Shown here: positions 3,497-60,403 of the stretch, piece by piece
Numbering within the stretch: the first letter of the stretch is position 1
Layout of the letters: each line of letters starts with the position of its first letter
Assembly (NCBI GenBank): GCA_003223645.1
Contig: QHVT01000004.1
Coordinates: forward strand, 59,334-123,333
DNA length: 64,000 nt
From: Acidobacteriota bacterium
GTDB taxonomy: Bacteria; Acidobacteriota; Thermoanaerobaculia; Gp7-AA8
Direction of reading: 5' to 3'
The notes under the pieces: generated by a model
Seen by the model: the letters and a program-made list of their open reading frames with translations, nothing else
Databases searched by the model: none
Told to the model about the DNA's origin: nothing
Program-made: the position numbers and the translations under genes

Positions 3497-3945
3497 GTGA
3501 CGAAAGATCACGCTGCTCTATAGTTTTAAGAGACATGGGTGATGAAAGATCACGTCGCTGCGTCGTTTTAGGCGACATGCGTGATGAAAGATCAAGTCGC
3601 TCTGTCGTTTTAAGAGACATTCGTGATGAAAGATCACGCTGCTCTCTCGTTTTGACAGACATGCGTGACGAAAGATCACGCCGCTCTCTCGTTTCCACAG
3701 ACATGCGTGACGAAAGACCACGCCGCTCTCTCGTTTCACACACCTGCGTGACGAAAGACCACGCCGCTCTCTCGTTTTCACAGACATGCGTGATGAAAGA
3801 TCACGCCGCTCTCTCGTTTCGACAGACATGCGTGACGAAAGATCACGCCGCTCTCTCGTTTCACAGACAGGCGTGACAAAAGATCACGCTGCTCTATCGC
3901 TTTAACAGAAATGCGTGATGAACGATCACGGATGAACGTCTCCAC
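3497..3945. repeat. Tandem array, ~10.5 copies of a 41-42 bp unit (gtgaYgaaagaYcacgccgctctctcgttttcacagacatgc); each unit carries a GTGAT-N5-ATCAC inverted repeat
   Basis: Direct reading shows 10 full units plus a partial one between the phosphoesterase and sulfatase genes. Units are 41 or 42 bp, so the array is not coding. Variation is scattered and there are no unique spacers. Confidence 0.9.
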
Positions 3946-4013
3946 ACGCGTAAACGATTGATGCCGAGATCAGCGTCTTTGCTCCTGGATCATGGCTTCT
4001 GCTCACGTTCAAA

Positions 4014-9688: not shown

Positions 9689-12107
<2,419 letters not shown>

Positions 12108-19112: not shown

Positions 19113-19210
19113 GTGGAGCGGCGCCCGCCCTCGGGCGCCGAATTGCGAGCGGCCCGAATCTGGCGCGTCCTTTCGGCGGCCGAGGGCGGCCGCCGCTCCA
19201 CAGCTAGGAG
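19113..19210. repeat. GC-rich palindromic element (GTGGAGCGGCGCCCGCCCTCGGGCGCCG ... CGGCGGCCGAGGGCGGCCGCCGCTCCAC); second copy at 25410-25470
   Basis: Long imperfect inverted repeat immediately after the M20 stop, between convergent genes. The same core GAGCGGCGGCCGCCCTCGGCCGCCG recurs after the ADOP permease gene. Confidence 0.7.
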
Positions 19211-22355: not shown

Positions 22356-22378
22356 ATCACACCCACAATCGTTCTCTC

Positions 22379-22450
22379 CGCCATCCGCCATCCGCCATCC
22401 GCCATCCGCCATCCGCCATCCGCCATCTGCCATCTGCCATCTGCCATCTG
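22379..22450. repeat. Single-arm tandem heptamer array (GCCATCC)5(GCCATCT)5 in the moeA/padR divergent region
   Basis: Direct reading of ccatccgccatccgcc...atctgccatctgccatctg. Same heptamer as the hairpin family at 26597, 28066, 48498 and 60308. Confidence 0.9.
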
Positions 22451-22467
22451 GTCAATATAGCCACCAT

Positions 22468-22842
22468 GTGTATAATCGTCGCGTGTATAGCCAGGATGAG
22501 ATCGACTCGCTGCTTCCGCTGCCACCCGCCACGTTCCACATCCTCGTCGCGCTGAGCGACGGGGAGCGTCACGGATACGCGATCATTCAGGACGTCGAGT
22601 CGTCCACCGACGGCGAGCTGCGGCTCTCCGCCGGCACGCTCTATCGCTCGATCGCGCGCATGGTCGAGCAGGGACTGATCGCCGAGACCACGAAGAAATC
22701 CTCGCGCCGCGACGACGATCAGCGCCGCCGCTACTACCACGTCACTTCGTTCGGCACCGCCGTCGCGCGCGCCGAGATGCGCCGCCTCACCCGCCTCGTC
22801 CGCCTCGGCCGCGCCAGCGGCCTCACTCCGGAGAACGTCTGA
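22468..22842 (+). CDS. PadR-family transcriptional regulator
   Basis: LPLPPATFHILVALSDGERHGYAIIQDVE...LSAGTLYRSIARMVEQGLI is the PadR winged helix. GTG start at 22468 or 22483; a TATAAT at 22471-22476 suggests a short or leaderless transcript. Stop overlaps the next gene's ATG (TGATG). Confidence 0.8.
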   Translation: MYNRRVYSQDEIDSLLPLPPATFHILVALSDGERHGYAIIQDVESSTDGELRLSAGTLYRSIARMVEQGLIAETTKKSSRRDDDQRRRYYHVTSFGTAVARAEMRRLTRLVRLGRASGLTPENV

Positions 22843-25409
22843 TGCGCTTCTATCGCCTGCTCCTGCATCTCTATCCATCCACATTCAGCCGCGACTACGA
22901 AGACGAACTGACGGACGTCTTCCGCGAGCGCGTGCGCGGCGCGAACCTGCTGCGCGTGCTCTTCGCCGCAATGGCCGACATCGTGCCGAACGCGATCGCC
23001 GCGCATTGGGAGCTGCTCGTCTTCGATCTCCGCTTCGCATTCCGCTCGCTGATGCGCACGCCGGGCTTCGCGATGACCGCGATCCTCGTCGCCGCCCTCG
23101 GCGTCGGCGCAAACACGGTTGCGTTCTCGCTCGCCGACTTCGTCCTCTTCCGCCCGCTGCCGCTCGTGCGCGCGGACCGGCTCGTGAAAATCTGGGAAAA
23201 GCCGCCCGACGGCAGCCGCAACGAAATGTCGCCGGCGAACTATCGCGACTTCACGACCGGCGCGCGCTCGTTCAGCGGCACGGCGGCGTACTCGCACCGG
23301 ACGGCGAATCTCACCGAGCAGGGCGAGCCGAGGCGAGTGGACCTGACGCTGGCGACTCCGGAGCTCCTGCCGCTGCTCGGCGTGCAGCCGATTCTCGGAC
23401 GTACGTTCACGGCTGCGGACGCAACGTCGACGGACACGGTCGTGCTCAGCTACGGACTCTGGAAGTCGCAGTTCGGCGGCGACCGCGCGATCCTCGGCCG
23501 CGTCGTCCGCCTCGACGGCACGCCGCACACCGTCATCGGCGTGATGCCGGCATCGTTTCAGTTTCCGACTCGCGATAGCGAAGGTTGGATCCCGCTCACG
23601 TTCCGCGAAGAAAACTACCAGGATCGCACCGACACGTTTCTCGAAGTCGTCGCGCGTCTGCGCGACGGCGTATCGATCGAGCAGGCGCGCAGCGAGATCG
23701 AAGTGCGCGCGAAAAATGTCGAGCGCAAGAATCCGAAAGATAACGAAGGCCTCGGCGCGTGGGTGATGGACCTGCGCGGCGAGACGCCGCGCAACGCGCG
23801 CATGCTCGTCCTCGCGCTTTGCGGCGCAGCTGTCTGCATCCTGCTGCTTTCCTGCGCGAACCTCGCGAGCCTTTTCCTCGCGCGCGGCACGCATCGCGCG
23901 CGCGAGCTCGCCGTTCGCTCCGCGCTCGGCGCGGGACGCGAGCGCATCGTGCGGCAGCTGATGACCGAGAGTTTCGTCGTCTCCGCGATCGGCGGCATCG
24001 TCGGCATCATCGCCGCCGCACTCGCGGTGCCGCTGTTCGCGAAGCTGGTCCCGAGAACGCTGCCGGTCGCCAACTATCCGAGCATCGACCTGCGCGTCCT
24101 GGCGATGGCCATCGGCTTCGTTCTCGTCACCGGACTCGCCTTCGGCGTGTTGCCGGCGATGCGCGCGTCGCGCGGAAGCGACTTCGACGCGCTGCGCACC
24201 GGAGTACGGAGTGGCGGCGGACGGACGCAACGTTTGCGATCGGTGCTCGTCGTCATCGAGATCGTCGCGTCGGTCGTGTTGATGATCTCCTCCGGACTGC
24301 TGCTGCGCGCGGTGTGGAACATTCAAAACCGAGCGCCGGGATTCAGTGCGGACAACGTACTGGTTGTCGGCACCGCTCTGCCGATGCCGAAATACGAAAA
24401 CGTCGCGCCGCGCGCGCGCTTTTACGAACAGGTGCTGAGCGAAGTGCGCGCGCTGCCCGGCGTAAAGAGCGCCGCGTACATCACCGGCCTGCCGATGCAG
24501 ATGACCGGCGGCATCTGGGCCGTCGGCATCAACGGTCAGGAACCGATCCGCAACGGCGACTACGACGTGAGTCTTCGCTACGCGACGCCGCAGTTTTTCG
24601 CGACGTTGCAGATTCCGCTGCTGCGTGGACGCGACATCGCGAACGCCGACGATCAAACGCATCCGAGCGTCGCCGTCGTCAGCGACTCGTTCGTCAAACA
24701 GTACTGGCCGGGACAGGACCCGATCGGCAAGCAGTTCAAAGTCGCGACGATGGACCGCACGATCGTCGGCGTCGTCGGCGACTTGAAAGTGCGCGGACTC
24801 GAGCGCCAGAGCGAGCCGCAGGTGTATCTGCCGTACCAGCAGGTGAAAGACGGCGACATCATCGGATACACGCCGAAGAAGCTGGTCGTGCGCACGGCCG
24901 GTGCGACGCAATCCCTCGTCACTCCGATCCGTCACATCGTGCAGCGCGCCGATCCGGAACAGCCGCTGTCGGACATCAAAACGATGGAGACGATCCTCAG
25001 CGACGACACCGCCGCGCGCGTCACACAAGTGCGACTGCTGGGCGCGCTCGCTGCGATCGCGCTGCTCATCGCCGGCATCGGCATCCACGGACTGCTCACC
25101 TACAACGTCTCGCGACGTGTGCCCGAGATCGGCGTGCGTCGCGCGCTCGGCGCGCAAGTCAGCGGCATCGTCGCGCTCGTCGTGCGCGAAGGCGTCGTCA
25201 TGGCCACGGTCGGTGTCGCGATCGGCGCGTTGCTCGCGTACGGAGCCGCGCGCTCGATGGCCGCGCTGCTCGCGGGCATCCGCCCCGCGGATCCGCTCAC
25301 GTTCACGCTCGCGTCGTTGCTCTGCGTCGCGACCGTGCTCGTGGGTTGCGCGCGCGCGGCGCTGCGGGCCGCCCATGTTGATCCGGCCCGCGCCCTGCGC
25401 GTCGAATAG
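22842..25409 (+). CDS. ADOP-family permease (FtsX-like with MacB-type periplasmic domain), PadR-associated
   Basis: 855 aa. N-terminal MRFYRLLLHLYPSTFSRDYEDEL...FDLRFAFRSL (ADOP signature), two FtsX 4-TM modules. Confidence 0.9.
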   Translation: MRFYRLLLHLYPSTFSRDYEDELTDVFRERVRGANLLRVLFAAMADIVPNAIAAHWELLVFDLRFAFRSLMRTPGFAMTAILVAALGVGANTVAFSLADFVLFRPLPLVRADRLVKIWEKPPDGSRNEMSPANYRDFTTGARSFSGTAAYSHRTANLTEQGEPRRVDLTLATPELLPLLGVQPILGRTFTAADATSTDTVVLSYGLWKSQFGGDRAILGRVVRLDGTPHTVIGVMPASFQFPTRDSEGWIPLTFREENYQDRTDTFLEVVARLRDGVSIEQARSEIEVRAKNVERKNPKDNEGLGAWVMDLRGETPRNARMLVLALCGAAVCILLLSCANLASLFLARGTHRARELAVRSALGAGRERIVRQLMTESFVVSAIGGIVGIIAAALAVPLFAKLVPRTLPVANYPSIDLRVLAMAIGFVLVTGLAFGVLPAMRASRGSDFDALRTGVRSGGGRTQRLRSVLVVIEIVASVVLMISSGLLLRAVWNIQNRAPGFSADNVLVVGTALPMPKYENVAPRARFYEQVLSEVRALPGVKSAAYITGLPMQMTGGIWAVGINGQEPIRNGDYDVSLRYATPQFFATLQIPLLRGRDIANADDQTHPSVAVVSDSFVKQYWPGQDPIGKQFKVATMDRTIVGVVGDLKVRGLERQSEPQVYLPYQQVKDGDIIGYTPKKLVVRTAGATQSLVTPIRHIVQRADPEQPLSDIKTMETILSDDTAARVTQVRLLGALAAIALLIAGIGIHGLLTYNVSRRVPEIGVRRALGAQVSGIVALVVREGVVMATVGVAIGALLAYGAARSMAALLAGIRPADPLTFTLASLLCVATVLVGCARAALRAAHVDPARALRVE

Positions 25410-25505
25410 TGAGCGGCGGCCGCCCTCGGCCGCCGAAGGGTTCCCGGCGCCCAAGGGCGGGCGCTGCTCCACTATAGAATCGCTTTTTGCAAGGGAGCCC
25501 ATCCG

Positions 25506-26596: not shown

Positions 26597-26690
26597 CGAC
26601 GGATGGCGGATGGCAGATGGCGGATGGCAGAAGCGCCACACGGGTGGCGGGGCCATCTGCCATCTGCCATCTGCCATCGGGACGGGCGGC
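26597..26690. repeat. Hairpin element with heptamer-repeat arms: (GGATGGCR)x4 - loop agaagcgccacacgggtggcgggg - (CCATCTG)x3
   Basis: Between asd and lysC. The arms are reverse complements built from GGATGGC/GCCATCY units. Confidence 0.9.
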
Positions 26691-26694
26691 AGCG

Positions 26695-28062
26695 ATGATC
26701 GTCATCAAGTTCGGCGGCACCTCGGTCGGCGACGCGGACCGCGTCGCGAATGCGATCGAGATCGTCGCCGAGCGCAGGCAGCGCAAGCCGATCGTCGTCG
26801 TCTCCGCGCTCTCCGGCGTCACGAACAACCTCGTCGATGCGTCCGAGGCCGCGTGCTCGCAGGACCCGAAGCGCGTGCGCGAGATCATCGCCGCGGTGCG
26901 CCAGCGGCACGAAGACGTCGCGCTGCAGCTCGTGCAGCAGAAGTCCGATTTCTTCGAGTCGTTCATCAAGCAGCTCGACAAACAGATCGAGGAGATCGAC
27001 ACGATCCTGCGCGGCATCGCGCTCCTCGGCGAGATCACGCCGCGCGCGCGCGACAAAGTGATGTCGATCGGCGAGAAGCTGTCATCCGTCCTGTTCGCGT
27101 ACACGATGATGATGCGCGCGCTGCCGGGCGAGCATGTGCATTCCGAGGAAGTGATCTGGACCGATGACCGCTTCGGCGGCGCGACGCCGGACATGGCGAA
27201 GACGCGCGACGCCGCGCAGCGCGTGCTGATGCCGCTCCTCGAGCGCAATCGCATTCCGGTGATGGGCGGCTTCATCGGCCGCACCGAAGCCGGCGCGACG
27301 ACCACGCTCGGACGCAACGGATCGGATTACAGCGCCGCGATCGTCGGCGCGGCCCTCGGCGCAAGCGAAGTGCAGATCTGGACGGACGTCGACGGACTGC
27401 TCACGTGCGATCCGCGCCTCGTGCGCGGCGCGCGCGTCATCGATCGCCTGTCGTTCGACGAAGCCGCGGAGCTCGCATCGTTCGGCGCGAAGCTGCATCC
27501 GCGCACGCTCGAGCCGGCAATCGCGGAGAACGTTCCGGTGCGCGTCCTCAACACGCACAACCCCGCTTCGCAGGGGACGCTGATCACGCGCGTCGTCGAG
27601 AACGCGCCCGCCGGGCCGCGCTCGATTGCGCGCAAGAAAGGCATTGCCGTCGTGCACATCTCGTCGAACAAGATGCTCGGCGCACACGGATTTCTCGCGC
27701 GCCTCTTCGACGAATTCGAGCGGCTCGCGATCTCGGTCGATCTCATCACGACGTCCGAAGTGTCGGTGTCCGTGACGGTCGACGACACGCAGAACCTCGA
27801 CAAACTGGAAGCGCGCTTGCGCGAAGTCGCGGACGTGAACGTCGAAGCCGATCAGTGTGTCATCGCTGTCGTCGGAACGGACCTCCTCGCCGATTCCGCT
27901 GTCGGCGTGCGCGTGTTCGAGGCGCTCCGCGGCATTCGCCTGAAGATGGTCTCCCTCGGACGCTCCGGTCTCAATCTCAGCCTCGTCGTCGACAACGCCG
28001 ACGCCGATCGCGCGGTCGAGTCGATTCATCACGCGCTCTTCGAGGCGCCCGTCGCCGTATGA
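26695..28062 (+). CDS. lysC: Aspartate kinase
   Basis: MIVIKFGGTSV, VVSALSGVTN; C-terminal ACT domains. Confidence 0.9.
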   Translation: MIVIKFGGTSVGDADRVANAIEIVAERRQRKPIVVVSALSGVTNNLVDASEAACSQDPKRVREIIAAVRQRHEDVALQLVQQKSDFFESFIKQLDKQIEEIDTILRGIALLGEITPRARDKVMSIGEKLSSVLFAYTMMMRALPGEHVHSEEVIWTDDRFGGATPDMAKTRDAAQRVLMPLLERNRIPVMGGFIGRTEAGATTTLGRNGSDYSAAIVGAALGASEVQIWTDVDGLLTCDPRLVRGARVIDRLSFDEAAELASFGAKLHPRTLEPAIAENVPVRVLNTHNPASQGTLITRVVENAPAGPRSIARKKGIAVVHISSNKMLGAHGFLARLFDEFERLAISVDLITTSEVSVSVTVDDTQNLDKLEARLREVADVNVEADQCVIAVVGTDLLADSAVGVRVFEALRGIRLKMVSLGRSGLNLSLVVDNADADRAVESIHHALFEAPVAV

Positions 28063-28065
28063 GAG

Positions 28066-28150
28066 GCGGATGGCAGATGGCAGATGGCGGATGGCAGAAG
28101 AGGGTGCCGGGTGGTGGGGCCATCTGCGATCCGCCATCTGCCATCCGGGA
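28066..28150. repeat. Heptamer-armed hairpin (GGATGGCR)n - loop agaagagggtgccgggtggtgggg - (CCATCYG)n
   Basis: Between lysC and dapB. Same architecture as 26597-26690. Confidence 0.9.
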
Positions 28151-28159
28151 GGACGTGCG

Positions 28160-28798
28160 GTGAAGATCGCGCTGCACGGCTACGGCAAGATGGGACACGC
28201 CGTCGAGCGCGTCGCGAAGGAAACGGGACACGAGATCGTGCAGCCGGCCGACGCCGTGGTGCTGATCGATTTCTCTAACGCGAGCGTGCTCGATCGCGCG
28301 ATCGCGACCGCGATCGACAACCACCTCGACCTCGTCATCGGCACGACCGGCTGGAACGATCGCCTCGACGAAGTGCGCGACCGCGTGAAGAACATCGGCT
28401 GCGTCTACGCATCGAATTTTTCGCCCGGCGCAAATGCCGTGTTCGCGCTGGCGCGGCGCGCGGGAGAACTGTTCGCGCGCTTCCCGCAATACGCGGCGGG
28501 GATGGAAGAGCGGCATCACGCGCAGAAGAAAGACGCGCCGAGCGGAACGGCGCTGCGCATTGCGTCCGAGGTGCAGCAGGGAAGCGGGGGAACATTCGAT
28601 CCGCCGATCGCGGCGCTGCGCGTCGGCGCGGAATTCGGACTGCACACGCTCTACTTCGACTCGCCCGATGATCTCGTCGAGATCACGCATCGCGCGCGCG
28701 GCCGCGACGGATTCGCGCGCGGCGCGATCTTTGCGGCGGAGCTCGTGCGAGGGAAAAAGGGATTGTTTCGATTTGATGAATTGCTGGGAAGGGAATAG
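28160..28798 (+). CDS. dapB: 4-hydroxy-tetrahydrodipicolinate reductase (short form)
   Basis: GTG 28160 preceded by gggagg. VKIALHGYGKMG NAD motif, later GTTGW, HHAQKKDAPSGTA. Confidence 0.85.
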   Translation: MKIALHGYGKMGHAVERVAKETGHEIVQPADAVVLIDFSNASVLDRAIATAIDNHLDLVIGTTGWNDRLDEVRDRVKNIGCVYASNFSPGANAVFALARRAGELFARFPQYAAGMEERHHAQKKDAPSGTALRIASEVQQGSGGTFDPPIAALRVGAEFGLHTLYFDSPDDLVEITHRARGRDGFARGAIFAAELVRGKKGLFRFDELLGRE

Positions 28799-28872
28799 GA
28801 CAAATAGGACCTCTAGGACAGATAGGACGCCGATGTCCTATGCGTCCTATCTGTCCTATTCGTCCTAGTTGG
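28799..28872. repeat. Hairpin with (ATAGGAC)n / (GTCCTAT)n repeat arms
   Basis: ggacaaataggacctctaggacagataggacgccgatgtcctatgcgtcctatctgtcctattcgtcctag. A related element lies at 52193-52290. Confidence 0.9.
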
Positions 28873-30591: not shown

Positions 30592-31697
30592 AAGCCGATC
30601 GCCTCGCGAACATCGAGCTCTCGCTCATCCGCCAGATCAACGCGCTCGCCACGCCCTACTCCATCAACCTCGGCATCGGCGAGCCGAATCTCGCGCCCGA
30701 TGACACGCTGCGCGAATTCGCCGCGCGCGCCGCGACGCTGCCGTGGCAATACTCCGCGAACGCGGGCACGCTGTCGCTGCGCAAGAAATTGTGCGAGGGA
30801 ACGGAGTTCGATCCGAAGACCGAGGCGTGCGTCACCGCGGGCACGCAGGAAGCGCTGTTCGCGATCTTCACCGCGTACGTGAATCCCGGCGACGAAGTGC
30901 TCGTGCCGAATCCCGGCTTCGTGTCGTACGCGACGCTCGCGCGCATCTGCGGCGCAACGCCCGTTACGTATCAGCTCGATCCGCCGGAGTGGCACATTGA
31001 CGTCGACGCGCTGCGAAAAAAGATCACGCCGAAGACGAAGCTGATCGTCGTCAACTCGCCGTCGAATCCCCTCGGCTCGGTGATCGATCGCGAGACATTG
31101 CAGGTGATCGCGGACACCGGCGTGCTCGTCGTCAGCGATGAGATCTATCGCGAGATCTGGTACGACGCGTGGCCGGCGTCGATGGTCGGCATGGGCGACA
31201 ACGTGATCCTGATGAACGGCCTCTCGAAGAGCCACGGCATGACCGGCCTGCGCCTCGGGTGGATTCTCGCGCGCGCCGATGTGATGCAGCCGATCGTCAC
31301 CGCGCATCAGTACATCGCCACGTGCGCGTCCGTTTTCTCGCAGGCGCTCGCGGAGATGATCTTCGATCATCGCGAATGGAACGAGCAGTGGCTCGCCGGC
31401 GTGCGCGAGCAGTTCGCGGCGCAGCGCGAAGCAGCGTTGTACGCGATCCGCCACGAGCTCGACACCGAGCTCGATCCGCCACGCGGCGCGTTCTACGCGT
31501 TCGTGCCGATGCCTGCGTGCAACACGGTGGAGACCGCGAAAGAGCTCGCGACCGACGCCGCGGTGCTCGTGATTCCGGGAATCGCGTTCGGGAAAATGGG
31601 ACAGGGATTCGTGCGGGTCTCGTACGCCGCGCCCGTCGATCAGATAGCGACCGGAATCGAGCGCATCGGACGATGGTTGCGCGCAAAGGAAAGATGA
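30588..31697 (+). CDS. Class I/II PLP-dependent aminotransferase, likely N-succinyl-diaminopimelate aminotransferase
   Basis: GTG start overlapping the dapD stop (GTGA). [22 protein letters not shown] (PLP lysine), fold-type I. Confidence 0.8.
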
Positions 31698-32530
31698 AGG
31701 CAGAAGGCAGAAGGCAGAAGGCAGAAATAAGAAAGCGCCGAGGCACTCGTCTCGCGGTCTTTCTCACTTCTGCCTTCTGCCTTCTGCCTTCTGCCTTCAT
31801 TGCTCTCCCAGTTCACGCCCAAACGCCCGATTACTCCCAGTGGAACCGCGTCCTCTCCACGTACTACAACCCCGCGAAAGGCATGGACTACCGTGCGCTC
31901 AAAGCGCGCGACTTCAAGACCGTGCAGTCGCTGCGACAGCAGCTCGGCAAAGTGAACGTCGCCGCGCTCGATCGCAAGTCGCAGCTCGCGTACTGGATCA
32001 ACGTCTACAACATCAACACCGTCGCTACGGTGCTCGAGGCGTATCCGGTCGACTCGATCCGCGACATCTCGACGGATCTCATCATCCGCCTCAACGTTTT
32101 CAAGAAAGAACGCATCCCGTTCGGAAACGTCCAGCTTTCACTCGACGCCGTCGAGAACGGAAAGATTCGCGAGGGCTTTCACGATCCGCGCATTCACTTC
32201 GCGATCAACTGCGCGGCGAAAACGTGTCCGCCGATCCGGATGGAGGCGTTCAGCGGCCTGAGGCTCGACGCGCAGCTCGACGATCAGGCACGCGCGTTTC
32301 TCAACGGCCCGCACGGCGTCCGCTTCGAGCGCGACGGCGGCACGCTCACCATCCACACGACGAAAATCATGGACTGGTTCAGCGACGACTTCGAAAAATG
32401 GGGCGGCGGCAAAGCGAAGTTCATTCGCAAATACGTCCCTGCCGACAAACAGAAACTGATCGACTCCGCGAAAGAGATCGAGTTCGAGTACGACGACTAC
32501 GACTGGGACCTGAACGACTGGAAGCGCTAG
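31694..32530 (+). CDS. DUF547-domain protein with signal peptide
   Basis: ATG overlaps the aminotransferase stop (ATGA) with an aaggaaag RBS. YWINVYNINTV and FAINCAAKTCPP are DUF547 hallmarks. N-terminal 40 aa are encoded by the GAAGGCA hairpin. Confidence 0.7.
   Translation: MKAEGRRQKAEIRKRRGTRLAVFLTSAFCLLPSAFIALPVHAQTPDYSQWNRVLSTYYNPAKGMDYRALKARDFKTVQSLRQQLGKVNVAALDRKSQLAYWINVYNINTVATVLEAYPVDSIRDISTDLIIRLNVFKKERIPFGNVQLSLDAVENGKIREGFHDPRIHFAINCAAKTCPPIRMEAFSGLRLDAQLDDQARAFLNGPHGVRFERDGGTLTIHTTKIMDWFSDDFEKWGGGKAKFIRKYVPADKQKLIDSAKEIEFEYDDYDWDLNDWKR
31697..31800. repeat. Hairpin with (GAAGGCA)x3 / (TGCCTTC)x3 arms
   Basis: gaaggcagaaggcagaaggcagaaataagaaagcgccgaggcactcgtctcgcggtctttctcacttctgccttctgccttctgccttc. 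Confidence 0.9.
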
Positions 32531-32640
32531 ACAAAAGCAGAAAGCAAAAGGCAGAAAGCAGAAGTGGGAGCGGCGAGACCCAAAACGCTTTCGTCTTTAC
32601 TTCTGCTTTCTGCTTTTTGCTTTCTGCTTTCTGAGCACGC
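32531..32640. repeat. Hairpin with (RGCAGAA)n / (TTCTGCY)n arms
   Basis: aaaagcagaaagcaaaaggcagaaagcagaag...cttctgctttctgctttttgctttctgctttc, following the DUF547 stop. Confidence 0.9.
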
Positions 32641-35891: not shown

Positions 35892-35962
35892 GGGCCTCCT
35901 GGCCTCCTGGCCTCCCAGCCTCTGAGCCTCCCAGAAACCCTTAGACGCCTGGAGGCTTGGCG
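35892..35962. repeat. Hairpin with (GGCCTCC)n / (GGAGGC)n arms between convergent genes
   Basis: gggcctcctggcctcctggcctcccagcctctgagcctcccag...cctggaggcttggcggcctggaggct. Confidence 0.85.
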
Positions 35963-35971
35963 GCCTGGAGG

Positions 35972-36208
35972 CTAATCCTGTGATCGCCGCTCGAGGTCCT
36001 CGCGCAACGCGCGTCCCGGCGTGCGGTCCTTCAATCGCGGGCGCTCGAGAATGCTCGCCAGCAAATCGGTCACGCCCCAGGCGATGAACGACACGGCGGC
36101 CATGGTGAAGAGATTCGAGACCGTTTGCAGCGGTAAGAGCAGGAACAGCGTGACGGGCACGCCGATGGCCATCACGATCACGCCGACAGTCAGTCTGATT
36201 GCGGACAC
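35972..36208 (-). CDS. Small membrane protein (2 TM), unknown function
   Basis: 78 aa with two hydrophobic segments (LTVGVIVMAIGVPVTLFLLL; AAVSFIAWGVTDLLASIL). Confidence 0.45.
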   Translation of the reverse strand: MSAIRLTVGVIVMAIGVPVTLFLLLPLQTVSNLFTMAAVSFIAWGVTDLLASILERPRLKDRTPGRALREDLERRSQD

Positions 36209-41514: not shown

Positions 41515-41830
41515 GATTCAACGCCGGGATTCCGGGATTCATCCCATGAGCTCTGGGATCGATCCCATGATTTCTGGCATCGATCCCATGAGCTCCGGGA
41601 TCGATCCCATGATTTCTGGCATCGATCCCATGATTTCTGGCATTGATCCCATGATTTCTGGGATCGATGCCATAGATTCTGGCATCGATCCCATAGATTC
41701 TGGGATTCATGCCAGAAATTCTGGGATTCATCCCATAGATTCTGGGATTGATCCCATGAGTTCTGGGATTCATGCCAGGATTCTGGGATTCATGCCAGGA
41801 TTCTGGTATTCGTCCCAGGATTGGGATTGT
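41515..41830. repeat. Tandem array of ~14 degenerate 21-bp units (gatYcatcccatgaKttctgg) between carbonic anhydrase and sucD
   Basis: Direct reading of gatcccatgatttctggcatc gatcccatgagctccgggatc ... . Units are 21 bp (two helical turns) and the region is non-coding between convergent genes. Confidence 0.85.
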
Positions 41831-42712
41831 CTATGAGGCTCTTCCCCGCCATACCTCTTCGAGCTTCTTCCCCATGTCGCTCGGCGCCTGGACGACGTGA
41901 ATGCCGGCCGCGCTCAGCGCGTCCATTTTTTCCGCCGCCGTTCCCTTGCCGCCGCTGATGATCGCGCCGGCGTGGCCCATGCGCCGTCCCGGAGGCGCGG
42001 TCTGCCCGGCGATGAACGCGACGACCGGCTTCGTCACATTCGCTTTCACGAATGCGGCCGCGTCTTCTTCCGCCGATCCGCCGATCTCGCCGATCATGAT
42101 GATCGCTTCCGTCGCATCGTCGGCCTGGAACGCCGCGAGGCAGTCGATGAAGTTCGTGCCCGGCAGCGGATCGCCGCCGATGCCGACCGCGGTCGACTGT
42201 CCGATGGTGCGCGTCTGCCCGACCGCCTCGTACGTCAGTGTTCCGGAGCGCGACACGATCCCGATCGGTCCCGGCTTGTGAATGTGTCCCGGCATGATCC
42301 CGATCTTGGCCTGCCCCGGCGTGATGATGCCGGGACAATTCGGTCCGATGAGGCGCGATCCCGTTCCGTGCTTCTTCAGAAAATCGTGCGCCTTCATCAT
42401 GTCGTTCACCGGAATGCCCTCGGTGATGCAGACGATCAATTCGATTCCGGCGTCGGCGGCCTCCATGATCGCGTCGGCCGCGAATGGCGGCGGCACGAAG
42501 ATCAGCGAGCAGTTCGCGCCCGCTTTCTCGCGCGCTTCCTTCACGTTGTTGAAGACCGGAAATCCCTCGTGCGTCGTTCCGCCCTTGCCCGGCGTCACGC
42601 CGCCGACGACCTGCGTTCCATAGTCGCGGCACTGGATCGCGTGGAACGTCCCCTCGCGGCCGGTGATGCCTTGAACGATGACCTTCGTGTCCTTGTCAGC
42701 CCAGATCGCCAT
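41831..42712 (-). CDS. sucD: Succinyl-CoA ligase subunit alpha
   Basis: 293 aa. [11 protein letters not shown], phospho-His region SRSGTLTYE, CoA-binding motifs. Confidence 0.95.
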
Positions 42713-42720
42713 TTCATCTC

Positions 42721-42832
42721 CATGTCATCCCGAGCGTGAGCGAGGGACCTGGGCGGGTGGGGCGCGCTGCATGTTCTTCGCAGCCCCACCCACCCAGGTC
42801 CCTCGCTCACGCTCGGGATGACATCGTTTTAT
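42721..42832. mobile_element. MITE-like ~105-bp perfect palindrome (gtcatcccgagcgtgagcgagggacctgggcgggtggggc ... gccccacccacccaggtccctcgctcacgctcgggatgac), intergenic copy between sucD and sucC
   Basis: ~40-bp arms that are exact reverse complements, with a ~20-nt loop. A second copy lies at 44488-44584. Confidence 0.8.
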
Positions 42833-48497: not shown

Positions 48498-48660
48498 GAA
48501 GTGGATGGCGGATGGCGGATGGCCTAGGGCGGATGGCGGATGGCGGATGGCAGATGGCGGGTCGCGGATCGCGGATGGCGGGTCACAGACCGTGGTTTTC
48601 TTCCGCCATCCGCCATCTGCCATCTGCCATCCGCAATCTGCCGTCTGCCATCTGCCTCAT
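48498..48660. repeat. Largest heptamer-armed hairpin: (GGATGGCR)n left arm, central segment, (GCCATCYG)n right arm
   Basis: Direct reading. Both arms are >40 bp of GATGGCG/GATGGCA units and their complement. Confidence 0.9.
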
Positions 48661-49888: not shown

Positions 49889-49949
49889 CGTCCTGGTGTG
49901 GGACAGGCTTTCCAGCCTGTCCTCCGGGGCGCAGGCTGGAAAGCCTGCG

Positions 49950-50559: not shown

Positions 50560-52191
50560 ATGGAATCGGTCCCGCCTCGCGCGGAAGTCACTGTCTACTC
50601 GCCGCTGTTCTCGCCCTTTCGTCACACGCTCGACGGGAGTGCCGTGTCCATCGGAAGGGCATCCGACTGCTCGATTCCCATCAAGGATCGTTACCTCTCG
50701 CGCAAACACGCCGAGATCATCGCCGTCGGCGCGGCGTGGGTCCTCAAGGACCTCGGCAGCGCGAACGGCACGTACCTCAACGGCACGCGCGTCGAACGCG
50801 ACGAAGCGCTGAAGCCCGGCGACCGCATCCGCCTCGGCGACACCGAGATCGTCTTCGAGGCGACGGAGCGCAACACCGATCGCTTCATCGCCGTCGCCGA
50901 GTCGAAAGCCAGCGCCACGATCGCGATCCCCGTTCACGAGATCACCGACCGTCCCGAAGCCGTCGACATCGCGCGCCTGCAGACGCTCACGCTCCTCGCG
51001 CGCGAGCTGATCGAAGACCGCCCGATGGACGAGCTGTTCGGCTTCATCGTCGAGCGCGTGATGGAGCATTTGCATCCCTCGAGAGCGGCGATCGCGCTGC
51101 TTGCGTCGGACGGAAAGTCGTTCACCAAAGTCGAAGTGCGGCGGCAGGACAAGAACGACTCCAGCGAGCTGACGATCAGCCACACGCTCCTGGCCGACAT
51201 CGTCGAAGAGAAAAAAGCGCTCGCGTTCATGGACATCAGCGCGGACGACAAACTGAGCCGCGCGCAGTCGATCATCATGCAGGGCATCCACTCGATTCTC
51301 TGTGCACCGCTGATGATCGGCAACGCCGTGGTCGGCGTGCTGTATGTCGACTACCTCTTCACGCAGCGCTCGATCACCGAAGACGACGTGCGCCTCGTCG
51401 CGCAGATCGGACGCTTCGCCGCCATCAAGCTCGAGACGACGCGTCTCCGCGAAGACGCGATCCAGAAACGCATCATGGACGAGGAGCTGAAGACCGCGTC
51501 AAACATCCAGCGCCGGCTCCTTCCCGCCGCGCCGAGCGCGATTGCCGGCTACACGTTCGTCGGCCGCAACCAGCCGAGCCGCGTCGTCAGCGGCGACTAC
51601 TACGACTTTGCCGTCCGTCCGAACGGCAAGGTCTACTTCGTCATCGGCGACGTGAGCGGGAAAGGCGTGACCGCAGGAATCATGATGGCCGGCCTCCAGG
51701 TCGCATTCCGCATCTTCTCGAAGACCGATCCCGATCCGGCCACGCTGGTGACGCAGCTCAATCTCGCGCTCAAAGAGAATCTCCCGCAGTCGAAATTCGT
51801 CACGCTCTTCCTCGGACGCCTCGACACCACGACCGGCGTGATCGAGTACGTCAACGCCGGCCACACACCGCCGCTCTGGCTGCACAAACGCGGCGTCACG
51901 GAGTTGACGGAAAGCGATCTCCTCCTCGGCGTCGTCACGCGCGCCGAGTTCGTGAACCGCAAACTGCAGCTCGATGCCGGCGACTCGCTCATCCTCTTCA
52001 CCGACGGCGTGAGCGAAGCGCGCAACGCCGCCGACGCCGACCTCGGATCGAATCTCCCGCTCGGCTCGATGCACGGAGCCAGCGCGGAGCTCATCGCGCG
52101 CGCCGTCAACGAAGCCGTGATCGCGCACGTCGGCGCCGCAGAAAATCTCGAGGACGACGTCACGGTCGTCATCGTCAGCCGCTCCGCGTAG
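50560..52191 (+). CDS. FHA-GAF-PP2C (SpoIIE/RsbU-type) serine/threonine phosphatase
   Basis: N-terminal FHA (SIGRASDCSIPIKDRYLSRKHAEI...GSANGTYLNG), central GAF, C-terminal PP2C (SGDYYDF...FVIGDVSGKG...LFTDG). Confidence 0.85.
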   Translation: MESVPPRAEVTVYSPLFSPFRHTLDGSAVSIGRASDCSIPIKDRYLSRKHAEIIAVGAAWVLKDLGSANGTYLNGTRVERDEALKPGDRIRLGDTEIVFEATERNTDRFIAVAESKASATIAIPVHEITDRPEAVDIARLQTLTLLARELIEDRPMDELFGFIVERVMEHLHPSRAAIALLASDGKSFTKVEVRRQDKNDSSELTISHTLLADIVEEKKALAFMDISADDKLSRAQSIIMQGIHSILCAPLMIGNAVVGVLYVDYLFTQRSITEDDVRLVAQIGRFAAIKLETTRLREDAIQKRIMDEELKTASNIQRRLLPAAPSAIAGYTFVGRNQPSRVVSGDYYDFAVRPNGKVYFVIGDVSGKGVTAGIMMAGLQVAFRIFSKTDPDPATLVTQLNLALKENLPQSKFVTLFLGRLDTTTGVIEYVNAGHTPPLWLHKRGVTELTESDLLLGVVTRAEFVNRKLQLDAGDSLILFTDGVSEARNAADADLGSNLPLGSMHGASAELIARAVNEAVIAHVGAAENLEDDVTVVIVSRSA

Positions 52192-52192
52192 G

Positions 52193-52290
52193 ACTTTTAG
52201 GACGAATAGGACATCTAGGACAGATAGGATGTCCTAGAAGTCCTATTCGTCCTATTCGTCCTATTCGTCCTACCTGTCCTACCCCGCCTT
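52193..52290. repeat. Hairpin with (ATAGGAC)n / (GTCCTAT)n arms; second member of this family
   Basis: ggacttttaggacgaataggacatctaggacagataggatgtcctagaagtcctattcgtcctattcgtcctattcgtcctacctgtcctacc. Confidence 0.9.
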
Positions 52291-53701: not shown

Positions 53702-54062
53702 TGCCTTCTTCGTCAAGCCACGCGCGGATCGCGCGCGTGGCTTGATCGTTCTTGAAGTTGAAGAACTTCTTCTGCACGTAAATGTCCTCGGAGAGCTTCG
53801 CGCGAAATCCCTGCGGCTCGTCGATGAGCTGCGCGAGCTGATCTCGCAGCGGCGACCGGGCGTCCATTCGCTCGACGAACAGCCGCCGATCCTCCGCTTC
53901 GCTCTCCGGCGTGCGCGCCGGAACCCGCCGGAATCGCGATGGATCACCGGGCGGATCGTCATCGAGCGGGACGTCGAGAATTTCGCCGGTCTCGAGGTCG
54001 AGGTAATGCGCCAGCGCAACGCCGAGGTACGCGACTTGAAGGCCGTCGAGGTCCAGGCTCAT
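53691..54062 (-). CDS. Hypothetical protein (124 aa)
   Basis: ATG at ~54062 at the edge of a hairpin repeat; the rest of the listed ORF upstream is repeat-derived. No family recognised. Confidence 0.4.
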   Translation of the reverse strand: MSLDLDGLQVAYLGVALAHYLDLETGEILDVPLDDDPPGDPSRFRRVPARTPESEAEDRRLFVERMDARSPLRDQLAQLIDEPQGFRAKLSEDIYVQKKFFNFKNDQATRAIRAWLDEEGISE

Positions 54063-54124
54063 GGGCTCATAGTCGCATAGGCTCATAGAAACTATGCGCC
54101 CGTGAGCCTGTGAGCCCATGCGCC
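54063..54124. repeat. Hairpin with GGCTCATAG-type repeat arms
   Basis: gggctcatagtcgcataggctcatagaaactatgcgcccgtgagcctgtgagccc, in the divergent region before murQ. Confidence 0.8.
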
Positions 54125-54148
54125 CTGTGGGTGATATCTTCGGTGACG

Positions 54149-58992: not shown

Positions 58993-60314
58993 AGAATCAC
59001 GGAAAACACATCAAGCACATCGAGCACGTCGCCGGCACGACGTACGTCCGCTTGCCGATCATCGCGTTCATCGGCGGCCTGCTCGCGCTCATCGTCCTCA
59101 CGATCGCGTTCTGGTCGGCGAAGCGAAAGCAGGACGCGAAGCTGAACGTGAAGTCGGCGTCGGAGATCCGCACGCTTCTTCCCTCGCTCGTCGGCCTCAC
59201 GCAGTCGACGCTCGACGGCGGCAACAGCGTCCAGGTCCTGCAGAACGGCAACGGATTTTTCCCGCCGATGCTGCGCGACATCGCCGCCGCCCGCGAGAGC
59301 GTGCACGTCGAGACATACATCTGGAGCAAGAGCGCGTTCGCGACGCAGTTTGCGCAATCGCTCGCGGCGAAAGCGCGGCAGGGCGTCGAAGTGCGCGTGC
59401 TCGTCGACGCGTCCGGCGGACGCGATCTCAAGGGCGACACGCAGAAGATCCTGGAGGACGCCGGCGCAAAGGTCGCGCATTTTCATCCCATCCGCATCAG
59501 CAACCTCGGCCGTCTGAACAATCGCGATCACCGCAAGCTCGTCATCATCGACGGCCGCATCGCCTACACCGGCGGCCACGGCATTTCCGCGAACTGGACG
59601 GGCGACGCGCAGGACAAAGAGCATTGGCGCGACACGGGGCTGCGCATCAGCGGCCCGGTCGTCAATCGATTGCAGGCGTGCTTCTCCGAAAACTGGATCG
59701 AGGAGACCGGCGAGATTCCCGCGGGCGACAAGTTCTTTCCGCACATCGCGCCGGCAGGCCCCACCGAGGCGCACGTCGCGTACACGTCGCCGACCGGCAG
59801 CATGTCGTCGGTGGAGATCCTCTACTACCTCGCCATCAAATCCGCGCGGCGCGAGATCCTGATTCAGAATCCATATCTGCTGCCGAACGAGGAGGCGATC
59901 AACGCGCTCGAAGACGCGGTGAAGCGCGGCGTCGACGTGCGCATCATGGTCCCGTCGACCGACGCGACCGACAGCGCGGTCGTGCAGCACGCGAGTCATC
60001 ATCACTTCGGCACGCTGCTCAAGCGCGGGATCAAGCTGTACGAGTACAAACACACGCTGCTGCATCAGAAAGTGATCGTCGTCGACGGCATCTGGTCGTC
60101 CGTCGGCTCGACGAATTTCGACGAGCGCTCGTTCCAGCTCAACGACGAAGTGAACATCGGCCTCCTCGACGCGAACGTCGCCGCGCAGCTGCGCAGCGCG
60201 TTTCAATCCGACCTTCGTTACTGCACGCAACGCCACTTCAACGAATGGCAGAAGCGCTCGCTGTGGCACAAGTTGGAGGATGGGCTGGCATACTTGGCAC
60301 ATGCGCAGATGTAG
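58989..60314 (+). CDS. Phospholipase D-family protein, cardiolipin synthase-like (two HKD motifs)
   Basis: TM anchor, HKD1 RDHRKLVIIDG and HKD2 HQKVIVVDG...GSTNFD. ATGA overlap with the EEP gene. Confidence 0.85.
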   Translation: MKNHGKHIKHIEHVAGTTYVRLPIIAFIGGLLALIVLTIAFWSAKRKQDAKLNVKSASEIRTLLPSLVGLTQSTLDGGNSVQVLQNGNGFFPPMLRDIAAARESVHVETYIWSKSAFATQFAQSLAAKARQGVEVRVLVDASGGRDLKGDTQKILEDAGAKVAHFHPIRISNLGRLNNRDHRKLVIIDGRIAYTGGHGISANWTGDAQDKEHWRDTGLRISGPVVNRLQACFSENWIEETGEIPAGDKFFPHIAPAGPTEAHVAYTSPTGSMSSVEILYYLAIKSARREILIQNPYLLPNEEAINALEDAVKRGVDVRIMVPSTDATDSAVVQHASHHHFGTLLKRGIKLYEYKHTLLHQKVIVVDGIWSSVGSTNFDERSFQLNDEVNIGLLDANVAAQLRSAFQSDLRYCTQRHFNEWQKRSLWHKLEDGLAYLAHAQM

Positions 60315-60400
60315 ATGGCAGATGGCAGATGGCGGATGGCGGATGGCCCCACCGCCCGGCTCGCGCTCCTGCCATCTGCCATCTGCCATCCGCCATCTGC
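60308..60400. repeat. Heptamer-armed hairpin (TAGATGGCAGATGGCAGATGGCGGATGGCGGATGGC - loop - GCCATCTGCCATCTGCCATCCGCCATCTGC)
   Basis: Direct reading, between the PLD-like and GNAT genes. Confidence 0.9.
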
Positions 60401-60403
60401 ATC

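What the first reader, a model, noticed from the sequence alone, without database searches (positions are those of the whole stretch)
26597..28150. Recurrent hairpin element with arms made of GGATGGC/GCCATCY heptamer tandem repeats (5 loci)
The same architecture occurs five times: 22379-22450 (single arm), 26597-26690, 28066-28150, 48498-48660 and 60308-60400. In each, 3-8 tandem GGATGGCR heptamers are followed by a GC-rich, itself palindromic loop (gccacacgggtggcgggg / ccgggtggtgggg / ccaccgcccgg) and then the reverse-complement heptamers. All copies sit in short gaps between co-directional genes (asd/lysC, lysC/dapB, miaA/lipoprotein, PLD/GNAT). No U-tract follows any of them. They create the spurious MADGRWQMADGGW... 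ORFs in the six-frame track. This is not a classical intrinsic terminator; it looks like a REP/BIME-like dispersed element or a U-less high-GC terminator/processing site. Two copies inside the lysine operon suggest transcript segmentation or differential stability.
Basis: seen in the sequence. Interest (0 to 1): 0.75.

Follow-up and report, generated by a model that had tools for sequence, protein, structure and literature searches.

The report
Tandem-repeat-armed hairpins between genes
In this soil acidobacterium and its relatives, the short gaps between neighbouring genes are often filled by a very stable hairpin whose two ~30-base arms are each built from about four copies of a 7-9-base unit; the unit differs between sites and species, a similar pattern was reported in Xanthomonas in 2015, and its function is still unknown.

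Summary
The window holds 10 hairpins and one single-arm array of the form (unit)n-loop-(reverse-complement unit)n. They use at least five unit families: RGATGGC, TAGGAC-N3, GAAGGCA/GAAAGCA, GGCTCATn and GGCCTCCn. My detector finds none in 100 shuffles of the window.

The same architecture occurs 83 times in 967 kb from 66 related Thermoanaerobaculia genomes and 0 times in 231 kb from 14 outgroup genomes. Typical features:
- starts about 2 nt after a stop codon and ends about 15 nt before the next start codon;
- arms of 30-34 nt whatever the unit length;
- 91% Watson-Crick pairing;
- no U-tract;
- G-rich arm first in 78 of 90 elements.

Units drift in concert on both arms. Each genome has "house" units shared between loci, although the loops are unrelated. 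Orthologous junctions are either empty (overlapping stop/start) or filled.

These are not intrinsic terminators, not strict REPs, not generally G-quadruplex formers, and not Chi-like. The closest precedent is the paired GGGAATC heptamer arrays of Xanthomonas (Rehm 2015), whose function is unresolved.

The best reading is simple-sequence-repeat-armed extragenic palindromes, co-transcribed as U-less stem-loops at cistron boundaries and maintained by slippage plus selection for pairing. The function is inferred, not shown.

The parts
22377..22448 (.). Single-arm array, (TCCGCCA)x6 then (TCTGCCA)x4, which is the reverse complement of RGATGGC. It lies in the divergent moeA/padR gap, directly upstream of a promoter-like TGGTCA-16-TATAAT site at 22449-22476.
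   Evidence: no fold (z = +2.0)
26597..26680 (.). RGATGGC hairpin between asd (stop at 26594) and lysC (start at 26695). Arms have 4 units each, and the 23-nt loop contains a 6-bp mini-hairpin.
   Evidence: -70.5 kcal/mol, z = -10.0; identical in 5 assemblies
28066..28147 (.). RGATGGC hairpin between lysC (stop at 28062) and dapB (GTG at 28161). Its loop is about 70% identical to that of the 26597 copy. In most relatives lysC and dapB overlap here.
   Evidence: -56.4 kcal/mol, z = -6.6
28794..28867 (.). TAGGAC-N3 (9-mer) hairpin between dapB and dapA. The dapB stop codon TAG lies in the first unit. The left arm has 4 units in two strains and 2 units in three others.
   Evidence: -41.6 kcal/mol, z = -6.1
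31694..31800 (.). GAAGGCA hairpin with 42-nt arms (95% complementary) after the aminotransferase gene and upstream of the DUF547 gene.
   Evidence: -84.8 kcal/mol, z = -14.1
32534..32633 (.). GAAAGCA/AAAGCAG hairpin after the DUF547 gene (stop at 32530), upstream of the beta-lactamase-like gene at 32668.
   Evidence: -61.6 kcal/mol, z = -8.7
35893..35973 (.). GGCCTCCn (8-mer) hairpin with the C-rich arm first, after the gene that ends at 35891, in a convergent gap.
   Evidence: -49.4 kcal/mol, z = -2.7, the weakest of the set
48503..48656 (.). Large RGATGGC hairpin with about 11 units against about 7, between miaA (stop at 48494) and a TPR protein gene.
   Evidence: -114 kcal/mol, z = -12.1
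52189..52281 (.). TAGGAC-N3 (9-mer) hairpin after the SpoIIE/FHA/GAF phosphatase gene. The stop codon TAG at 52189-52191 lies in the first unit. A beta-lactamase-family gene follows.
   Evidence: -57.2 kcal/mol, z = -9.9
54055..54125 (.). GGCTCATn (8-mer) hairpin upstream of the SIS-domain gene. The same unit family as an orthologous-site series in relatives (AGGCTCAW).
   Evidence: -44.7 kcal/mol, z = -5.2
60295..60403 (.). RGATGGC hairpin between the PLD gene (stop codon TAG at 60312-60314, inside the 5' arm) and the GNAT gene (ATG about 5 nt after the 3' arm). Its loop is the reverse complement of the 26597/28066 loop type.
   Evidence: -73 kcal/mol, z = -8.8

Best explanation
These are members of a lineage-wide class of extragenic palindromes whose two arms, each about 30 nt, are short tandem arrays. 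The units are 6-10 nt, mostly heptamers in about four copies.

Shown:
- They occupy almost the whole spacer between a stop codon and the next gene's ribosome-binding site or start codon.
- They form very stable hairpins.
- They lack a U-tract.
- They carry the G-rich arm first.
- They are gained and lost at orthologous junctions.
- Their units evolve in concert on both arms and are shared between loci of one genome.

Inferred:
- They are co-transcribed with the flanking genes and fold in the mRNA into a U-less stem of about 30 bp.
- That stem does not terminate like an intrinsic terminator. It acts like REP/BIME stem-loops, as a 3'->5' exonuclease barrier or processing point at cistron boundaries.
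- The stem brings the stop codon and the next start codon close together, which would explain why insertion at overlapping stop/start junctions is tolerated.
- Having the G-rich arm first leaves no C-rich unstructured RNA for Rho to load on.
- The tandem structure is produced and kept uniform by replication slippage, which is known to favour heptamers.
- Complementarity is kept by selection for pairing and/or intrastrand template switching.
- "House" units spread between loci by non-reciprocal transfer (gene conversion or transposition).
For: Architecture and excess over chance: 9 paired elements detected in the window against 0 in 100 shuffles; 83 in 967 kb of relatives against 0 in 2.9 Mb of shuffles and 0 in 231 kb of outgroups.

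Stability: z = -5 to -14 for 9 of the 10 window hairpins; E35893 is weaker (z = -2.7). Arms are 91% Watson-Crick over 2592 positions.

Position: median gap of 2 nt from stop codon to 5' edge (IQR -2 to 5) and 15 nt from 3' edge to start codon; 62 of 92 are bracketed on both sides. The stop-codon anchoring also holds for minus-strand and convergent contexts.

Not a terminator: no U-tract.

Arm length is 30-34 nt for periods 6 to 10.

Non-repeat palindromes with 30-42-nt arms occupy the same post-stop niche in this genome and also form families.

Concerted evolution at an orthologous site.

House units: rotation-Hamming distance 2.13 for same genome/different site, 2.71 for same site/different genome, 3.19 for unrelated pairs; p < 0.0005.

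Empty orthologous sites are overlapping GTGA/ATGA or 13-25-nt spacers.

Unit-number polymorphism between near-identical strains.

Precedent: the same four-unit mode, proximity to the upstream ORF and convergent pairing in Xanthomonas, where most repeats are transcribed (PMC4692102).
Against: There is no direct evidence of transcription, 3' ends or processing.

There is no sense-strand RNA signature. Arm mismatches are 53 G.T/T.G against 68 A.C/C.A. Sense and antisense folding energies show no consistent bias. Loops show no strand skew.

Many relatives have empty junctions, so the elements are dispensable at any given site.

There is no inner-to-outer decay gradient in the arrays, so simple growth at the stem base is not supported.

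Slippage plus pairing selection does not explain why unrelated loci of one genome share a unit while their loops are unrelated. It also does not explain the invariant TAGGAC core with diverse 3-nt spacers.

The Rho-avoidance reading of the G-first chirality is pure inference.
Confidence: 0.4

Rival explanations
1. Selfish or neutral DNA palindromes (MITE/REPIN-like) with no host function. Copies spread within a genome through an unknown trans-acting enzyme or through recombination. Only harmless insertions survive: fully self-pairing, no U-tract, no Rho-loading arm, stop and start codons kept adjacent. This would produce the observed regularities as a filter rather than as a function.
For: - Presence/absence at orthologous junctions, including sites where the genes overlap in relatives.
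- Genome-specific unit families across unrelated loci.
- Copies with related loops in both orientations.
- A REP-like palindrome nested in the loop of one element.
- The strand symmetry of all measurable properties.
- Arms of about 30 nt resemble terminal inverted repeats.
Against: - No target-site duplication or conserved terminal motif was seen.
- Loops of same-unit copies are mostly unrelated, unlike typical MITE copies.
- No transposase was identified, though only flanking ORFs were scanned.
- The asd-lysC junction is filled in most crown-group species, which suggests either a hot spot or a benefit.
Confidence: 0.3
2. U-less transcription attenuators or terminators. The long stem pauses or partially terminates RNA polymerase between cistrons. 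Because the stem begins at the stop codon, a closely following ribosome prevents folding, so downstream transcription would be coupled to upstream translation.
For: - The stem starts 2 nt after the stop codon.
- Elements also occur at convergent gene ends, in one case flush with both stop codons (L067 3593-3728).
- Long U-less stem-loops are reported at 3' ends in high-GC Actinobacteria (PMC13613805).
Against: - No U-tract.
- Most copies sit inside conserved operon-like gene strings with no room for a new promoter before the next gene.
- From general knowledge, mycobacterial RNA polymerase needs a U-tract in vitro.
Confidence: 0.12
3. Arrays of binding sites for a sequence-specific DNA- or RNA-binding protein (or several), with four sites per arm.
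For: - The TAGGAC-N3 family has an invariant 6-nt core with variable spacers, four cores per arm, at non-orthologous sites in two species.
- TAGGAC is absent elsewhere in the window, against 4.8 expected.
- Genome-specific house units.
- A weak shared core, T-G-n-n-R-G-W (4.8 bits against 3.7 for the null).
Against: - Several unrelated units coexist in one genome, and dozens exist across the clade.
- Periods of 6-10 nt do not keep a helical phase.
- Arm length in nucleotides is conserved, not site number.
Confidence: 0.1
4. G-quadruplex-forming repeats, the explanation offered for the four-unit preference in Xanthomonas.
For: The 5' arms are G-rich. A four-unit mode would match four G-tracts (PMC4692102).
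Against: - Only 13 of 92 units contain GGG.
- The four-unit mode holds for units such as GTTGCTG or AGTGCTG.
- Copy number scales inversely with period, so about 30 nt is the conserved quantity, not four units.
- The complementary arm competes for pairing.
Confidence: 0.03

Closest known systems
Paired GGGAATC heptamer simple-sequence repeats of Xanthomonas campestris/axonopodis (Rehm et al. 2015, PLoS One, PMC4692102)
   Same: - Tandem heptamers with a clear mode of four units.
- About 90% intergenic and close to the end of the upstream ORF.
- 70-75 cases per genome form pairs in convergent orientation, meaning the G-rich array comes first on each strand.
[quoted passage not shown]
- Function unresolved.
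   Different: - One unit family per genome there, credited to G-quadruplex formation. Here there are many unrelated units of 6-10 nt per genome and clade, and 86% lack G3 tracts.
- Arm length, not unit number, is constant here.
- Here elements are flush with the stop codon (2 nt against an average of 28 nt).
- House-unit and concerted-evolution statistics were not described there.
REP / BIME / REPIN extragenic palindromes (E. coli, Pseudomonas; e.g. Bertels and Rainey 2011, PMC3116915)
   Same: - Dispersed, genome-specific families of hairpin-forming extragenic elements at gene 3' ends and inside operons.
- Found in both orientations, as singlets and as inverted doublets.
- The spacer between inverted copies is less conserved than the copies themselves.
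- From general knowledge, they have a proposed role as mRNA 3' stabilisers.
   Different: - Each REP is itself an imperfect palindrome with a conserved 5' tetranucleotide (GTAG) and a cognate RAYT transposase.
- Here single arms are not self-complementary, no conserved flanking motif exists, and no RAYT was seen.
- The arms here are tandem repeats.
Cyanobacterial STRR heptamers and TAACTGA direct repeats of Beggiatoaceae, cyanobacteria and Bacteroidetes (MacGregor 2015, PMC4679880)
   Same: Species-specific intergenic tandem heptamers of 2-6 copies, attributed to polymerase slippage that favours 7-nt units.
   Different: Those are direct arrays, mostly upstream of start codons; only one of 170 sets is inverted. 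They are not hairpin arms.
Rho-independent (intrinsic) terminators and U-less long stem-loops of high-GC bacteria
   Same: A GC-rich hairpin just downstream of a stop codon. U-less long stems are reported at actinobacterial 3' ends (PMC13613805).
   Different: Stems of 27-40 bp against 5-14 bp, no U-tract, mostly inside operon-like gene strings, and arms made of tandem repeats.

Membership tests
Intrinsic (Rho-independent) terminator | U-rich tract immediately 3' of the hairpin | tested here: not met
   Mean of 2.2 T in the 12 nt after the 3' arm; 1 of 83 has 6 or more T and none has 8 or more. The consensus scan finds no element-associated terminator.
Intrinsic (Rho-independent) terminator | Short GC-rich stem (about 5-14 bp) with a 3-8-nt loop | tested here: not met
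   Arms have a median of 31 nt and loops are 5-90 nt.
REP / REPIN | Each repeat copy is itself an imperfect palindrome | tested here: not met
   The single arm at 22377-22448 folds at -3.5 kcal/mol, z = +2.0. The units are not self-complementary.
REP / REPIN | Conserved flanking tetranucleotide (e.g. GTAG) | tested here: not met
   No conserved position in the 20 nt flanking the 3' edge. The 5' flanks at filled sites vary.
REP / REPIN | Cognate RAYT (Y1 transposase) gene in the genome | not testable with these tools
   Only 64 kb of this genome and windows of about 20 kb from relatives are held. Scanned ORFs near the elements are housekeeping genes.
REP / REPIN | Extragenic, genome-specific, multi-copy family in both orientations | tested here: met
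   Five RGATGGC loci in 64 kb. The loop type is shared by three copies, one of them inverted.
Xanthomonas-type paired heptamer SSRs (Rehm 2015) | Tandem heptamers with a mode of four units | tested here: met
   65 of 92 elements are heptamers; 95 of 130 heptamer arms have 3.5-4.75 copies.
Xanthomonas-type paired heptamer SSRs (Rehm 2015) | Convergent pairing (G-rich array first on each strand), intergenic, next to the upstream ORF's end | tested here: met
   78 G-first against 12 C-first. The median gap from stop codon to element is 2 nt.
Xanthomonas-type paired heptamer SSRs (Rehm 2015) | G3 tracts that allow G-quadruplex formation | tested here: not met
   13 of 92 units contain GGG.
MITE | Target-site duplication flanking terminal inverted repeats | tested here: inconclusive
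   Filled/empty pairs at 89-97% flank identity show no clear duplication beyond the stop/start trinucleotides, which must be duplicated to keep both genes intact.
Rfam RNA families | Match to a curated covariance model | tested here: not met
   0 matches at gathering thresholds in the whole window.
Chi-like recombination hotspot motif | Motif over-represented and strand-skewed as singletons genome-wide | tested here: not met
   Outside the arrays, GGATGGC occurs 4 times against 8.5 expected, TAGGAC 0 against 4.8, and GGCTCAT 3 against 7.4.

The most novel reading that the evidence does not exclude
The regularities are:
- arms of about 30 nt whatever the unit length;
- sharp array edges;
- G-rich arm first in two phyla;
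- genome-specific "house" units shared by loci whose loops are unrelated;
- an invariant TAGGAC core with free spacers.

The most novel reading is that these reflect a dedicated, still unknown machinery that writes or homogenises short tandem units symmetrically onto both sides of intergenic hairpins. Candidates would be a hairpin-directed nuclease/polymerase or a templated repeat-adding enzyme. That would make this a new type of bacterial repeat system rather than a by-product of slippage.

A softer version: copy-number changes in the arms act as a heritable, quantised rheostat for the expression ratio of adjacent cistrons.
Probability: 0.15. Interest if true: 0.85.

Novelty: new variant of a known kind. 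Interest (0 to 1): 0.6.

Why it matters
Heptamer simple-sequence repeats have been known since 2007 to be over-represented in many bacterial genomes, and inverted pairs of them were noted in Xanthomonas in 2015. No function or origin has been established for either.

This clade offers a natural experiment that Xanthomonas does not. It has dozens of unrelated units, several unit lengths, and many orthologous filled and empty junctions.

The data already show three things:
- The conserved quantity is a stem of about 30 bp placed at the stop codon, not four G-tracts.
- Units evolve in concert on both arms.
- Genomes keep house units across loci.

If the elements shape mRNA ends or operon stoichiometry, they would be a major unannotated layer of gene organisation in abundant soil Acidobacteriota. 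The density here, about 1-1.6 per 10 kb, extrapolates to several hundred per genome.

They also have practical consequences. They create spurious ORFs and mis-called start codons (moeA, dapB, DUF547, TPR gene). They may also break short-read assemblies: two 1.49-kb contigs end in the hairpins flanking lysC.

Tried and rejected
- **Chance or assembly artefact.** Rejected.
- **Known RNA family.** No Rfam hit.
- **Classical terminator.** No U-tract.
- **Sense-strand RNA signature from G.U against A.C mismatches, from sense-versus-antisense energies, and from loop skew.** None found.
- **Growth by unit addition at the stem base, with older and more degenerate inner units.** Array edges are sharp on both sides and there is no gradient.
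- **Constant number of units, suggesting a tetramer or G4.** Arm length in nucleotides fits better. Only 14% of units have G3.
- **Chi-like house motif.** Units are not enriched outside arrays.
- **Strong common unit consensus.** Only a weak T-G-n-n-R-G-W pattern.
- **Whole-element copy-and-paste.** Loops of same-unit copies are mostly unrelated, and ortholog loops are at the shuffle baseline.
- **\"Six fixed positions plus variable remainder\" as a general rule.** Holds clearly only for TAGGAC-N3.
- **Target-site duplications.** Inconclusive.
- **Junction-type preference.** Co-directional 16%, convergent 4%, divergent 4%. This is confounded because all loci sample the same operon and my gene caller is crude.
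- **Close strain pairs for recent gain events.** Only one pair was found, at 87% identity.
- **Taxonomic placement of the 40%-GC contig L149.** Only housekeeping genes were recognised.
- **Literature searches.** No description of this architecture was found in Acidobacteriota.
Full report
**1. Observation**

GGATGGC occurs 28 times in the window against 9.6 +/- 3.0 in dinucleotide shuffles.

Tandem Repeats Finder and direct reading show that the architecture is not tied to that heptamer. The same layout, (unit)n, then a loop, then (reverse-complement unit)n, occurs with other units:
- TAGGAC-N3 at 28794 and 52189;
- GAAGGCA at 31694;
- GAAAGCA at 32534;
- GGCTCATn at 54055;
- GGCCTCCn at 35893.

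In total the window has 10 hairpins and one true single-arm array (22377-22448).

My detector pairs TRF arrays of period 5-12 with a reverse-complement array within 90 nt. It finds 9 elements in the window and none in 100 dinucleotide shuffles.

Nine of the ten hairpins fold at -42 to -114 kcal/mol with z-scores of -5 to -14. The tenth, E35893, folds at -49 kcal/mol with z = -2.7. The single arm does not fold.

**2. Not an artefact; organism**

The lysC protein of the window is encoded on 12 contigs from independent soil metagenome assemblies. In five of them the seven elements within reach are identical.

The exception is the TAGGAC element at 28794, whose left arm has two units instead of four in three strains. 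That is a VNTR-like polymorphism.

Two 1.49-kb Logan contigs (L006, L007) end in the hairpins that flank lysC, which is compatible with assembly breaks at the repeats.

Relatives found through LysC are Thermoanaerobaculia/Acidobacteriota MAGs with 56-80% LysC identity. They include contigs of 2.5-5.9 Mb and one complete chromosome.

**3. Distribution**

In 66 such loci (967 kb) the detector finds 83 paired elements, with at least one in 41 loci. It finds none in 14 outgroup loci (231 kb; Terriglobia, Bryobacterales, Longimicrobiales, Spirochaetota) and none in 2.9 Mb of shuffles.

Density falls with distance from the window's species, from 1.10 to 0.37 per 10 kb.

A scan of JGI metagenomes for three RGATGGC units returned many more hairpins. 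It also returned a 40%-GC contig from an unidentified bacterium (genes ribF, holA, glgB) with four hairpins of four different units in 10 kb. The architecture is therefore not confined to one clade.

**4. Anatomy across 92 elements (window plus relatives)**

- **Periods:** 7 nt (65 elements), 8 nt (21), 9 nt (4), 10 nt (2).
- **Pairing:** arms are 91% Watson-Crick over 2592 positions.
- **Arm length:** copy number is sharply peaked, with 95 of 130 heptamer arms at 3.5-4.75 copies. Copy number falls as the period rises (about 5.1, 4.3, 4.2, 3.8 and 2.8 copies for periods 6 to 10), so the conserved quantity is an arm of 30-34 nt.
- **Array edges:** sharp on both sides. Unit identity is about 0.93 inside, 0.24 in the outer flank and 0.30 in the loop, with no inner-outer gradient.
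- **Position:** the 5' edge lies a median of 2 nt after the stop codon of the gene reading into the element (IQR -2 to 5; the stop codon is often inside the first unit). The 3' edge lies a median of 15 nt before the next start codon. Sixty-two of 92 elements are bracketed on both sides.
- **No U-tract** follows the 3' arm. Rfam has no match.
- **Chirality:** the G-rich arm comes first in 78 elements and the C-rich arm in 12 (p = 5e-13). Because the element is a palindrome, this holds on both strands.
- **No strand-specific signal:** mismatches compatible with G.U on the given strand (53) are not more frequent than those compatible on the opposite strand (68). Sense and antisense energies show no consistent bias. 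Loops have G 671 and C 663 on the sense strand.

**5. Evolution**

At orthologous junctions the spacer is bimodal. It is either empty (overlapping GTGA/ATGA or 4-46 nt) or filled (about 60-170 nt, or 250-400 nt when compound).

lysC and dapB overlap in most close relatives. The window and four other species carry elements of different units exactly at that junction. In one of them a REP-like palindrome, of the same family as window 42722-42824, is nested in the loop.

At the dapA-dapD junction, elements in six species share a related 8-mer. The species-specific variant (AGGCTCAA, AGTCTCAA, AGGCTCAT, AGTCGTCA) is carried by most units on both arms, which is concerted evolution.

Units at the asd-lysC junction form a chain of one- or two-substitution neighbours that includes the window's GGATGGC.

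Mean rotation-Hamming distance between heptamer units:

| Comparison | Mean distance | Within one substitution |
|---|---|---|
| Unrelated pairs | 3.19 | 6% |
| Same site, different genomes | 2.71 | 14% |
| Different sites, same genome | 2.13 | 40% |

Both of the last two differ from background with permutation p < 0.0005. Each genome therefore has house units.

The loops of same-unit elements are mostly unrelated, and ortholog loops are at the shuffle baseline (0.45 against 0.45). Arms keep only weak similarity (0.60 against 0.51).

Three RGATGGC copies in the window are an exception. They share a loop that is about 70% identical, one of them inverted.

**6. Context in this genome**

Other gene 3' ends carry non-repeat palindromes with arms of 30-42 nt that also begin at the stop codon and also form families. 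Examples are 19113-19201 with 25407-25476 and 42722-42824.

The tandem-arm hairpins are thus one of several sequence solutions for the same niche.

**7. What it is and how it probably works**

The shown facts define a class of SSR-armed extragenic palindromes.

The function is inferred. The elements lie in transcribed intercistronic or 3' space, so they should fold in the mRNA into a U-less stem of about 30 bp.

That stem is not an intrinsic terminator. By analogy with REP/BIME stem-loops, and with the stem-loops that cap Rho-terminated transcripts (general knowledge), it should block 3'->5' exonucleases or serve as a processing site.

Three features would make such an insertion compatible with operon expression:
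- The stem begins at the stop codon and ends just before the ribosome-binding site, so stop and next start stay adjacent in space.
- There is no U-tract.
- The first-transcribed arm is G-rich, so no C-rich unstructured RNA is exposed to Rho.

The tandem structure is best explained by replication slippage. The literature reports that slippage favours heptamers (Mrazek 2007, as cited in PMC4679880 and PMC4692102). Selection for pairing and/or template switching would keep the arms complementary.

This account does not explain the house units, the chirality shared with Xanthomonas, or the invariant TAGGAC core with free spacers. A selfish-element reading (30%) and a dedicated-machinery reading (15%) therefore stay open.

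**8. Comparison with what is known**

The closest precedent is Rehm et al. 2015. They describe GGGAATC heptamer arrays in Xanthomonas with these features:
- a mode of four units;
- about 90% intergenic;
- an average of 28 nt from the upstream ORF;
- 70-75 convergent pairs per genome;
- mostly transcribed;
- no function found, and no later functional work in the library.

They credited the four-unit mode to G-quadruplexes. Here 86% of units lack G3 tracts, and arm length rather than unit number is constant. That argues for a stem-length explanation there too.

REP/BIME/REPIN elements share the niche and the family behaviour, but not the defining features tested: self-palindromic copies and a flanking tetranucleotide.

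Cyanobacterial STRR and Beggiatoaceae TAACTGA repeats are direct arrays, not paired.

**9. Verdict**

This is a real, strongly non-random, lineage-wide feature. It is a new variant of a known but unexplained kind.

Noticed in passing
window 3497-3930: Tandem array of a 42-nt unit, 10.4 copies (super-period 125 nt), 86% matches, in the gap between the genes ending at 3466 and starting near 3990-4014. Each unit contains a small hairpin, GTGA-CGAAAGA-TCAC.
   Followed up: no
window 41530-41817: Tandem array of a 21-nt unit, 13.8 copies, whose unit is itself near-palindromic (GGGATTGATCCC). The whole array is self-complementary (110-nt arms, 75%) and lies between the gene ending at 41509 and the minus-strand gene at 41831-42712.
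   Followed up: no
window 42722-42824; L020 about 11400-11520: REP-like perfect palindrome (42-nt arms, 98% complementary; ATGTCATCCCGAGCGTGAGCGAGGGACC...) starting 3 nt after a minus-strand stop codon. A member of the same family is nested inside the loop of a tandem-arm hairpin at the lysC-dapB junction of another species.
   Followed up: partly
window 19113-19201 and 25407-25476: Two non-repeat palindromes of one family (GTGGAGCGGCGCCCGCCCTCGGGCGCCGAA...), with arms of about 30 nt. Both begin within 1-3 nt of a stop codon and differ by a 24-nt loop insertion.
   Followed up: partly
window 49885-49955: Convergent gene pair separated by a hairpin pair built on GGGACAGGCTTTCCAGCCTGTCC. A related GGGCTGGAAAGCCC motif lies at 22340.
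   Followed up: no
window 22449-22476: The only sigma-70-like promoter match in 21-37 kb (TGGTCA-16-TATAAT, 10 of 12) starts immediately after the 10-unit single-arm array, upstream of padR.
   Followed up: no
window 22433, 28070, 31673, 48491 (ORF starts): Gene callers and mechanical ORF lists start moeA, a dapB-frame ORF, DUF547 and the TPR gene inside the repeats, giving spurious MADGRW-type N-termini. Pfam domains begin well downstream (MoeA_N at residue 53).
   Followed up: partly
window 26597-28150 and 31694-32633: Two genes (lysC, DUF547) are each flanked on both sides by hairpins of the same unit family, with related loops seen by alignment for the lysC pair. In L014 and L021, lysC is likewise flanked by same-unit hairpins, which suggests local copying between neighbouring junctions.
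   Followed up: partly
L149 1-5000 (OFDN01001165.1): A 40%-GC contig from an unidentified bacterium (genes ribF, holA, a histidine kinase, glgB) carries four tandem-arm hairpins with four different heptamers, again starting at stop codons.
   Followed up: partly
L069 12043-12273 and 19968-20278; L070 10170-10412: In the most distant relatives some elements are much larger and lopsided (up to 23 units on one arm, loops over 80 nt), unlike the tight four-unit form of the crown group.
   Followed up: no
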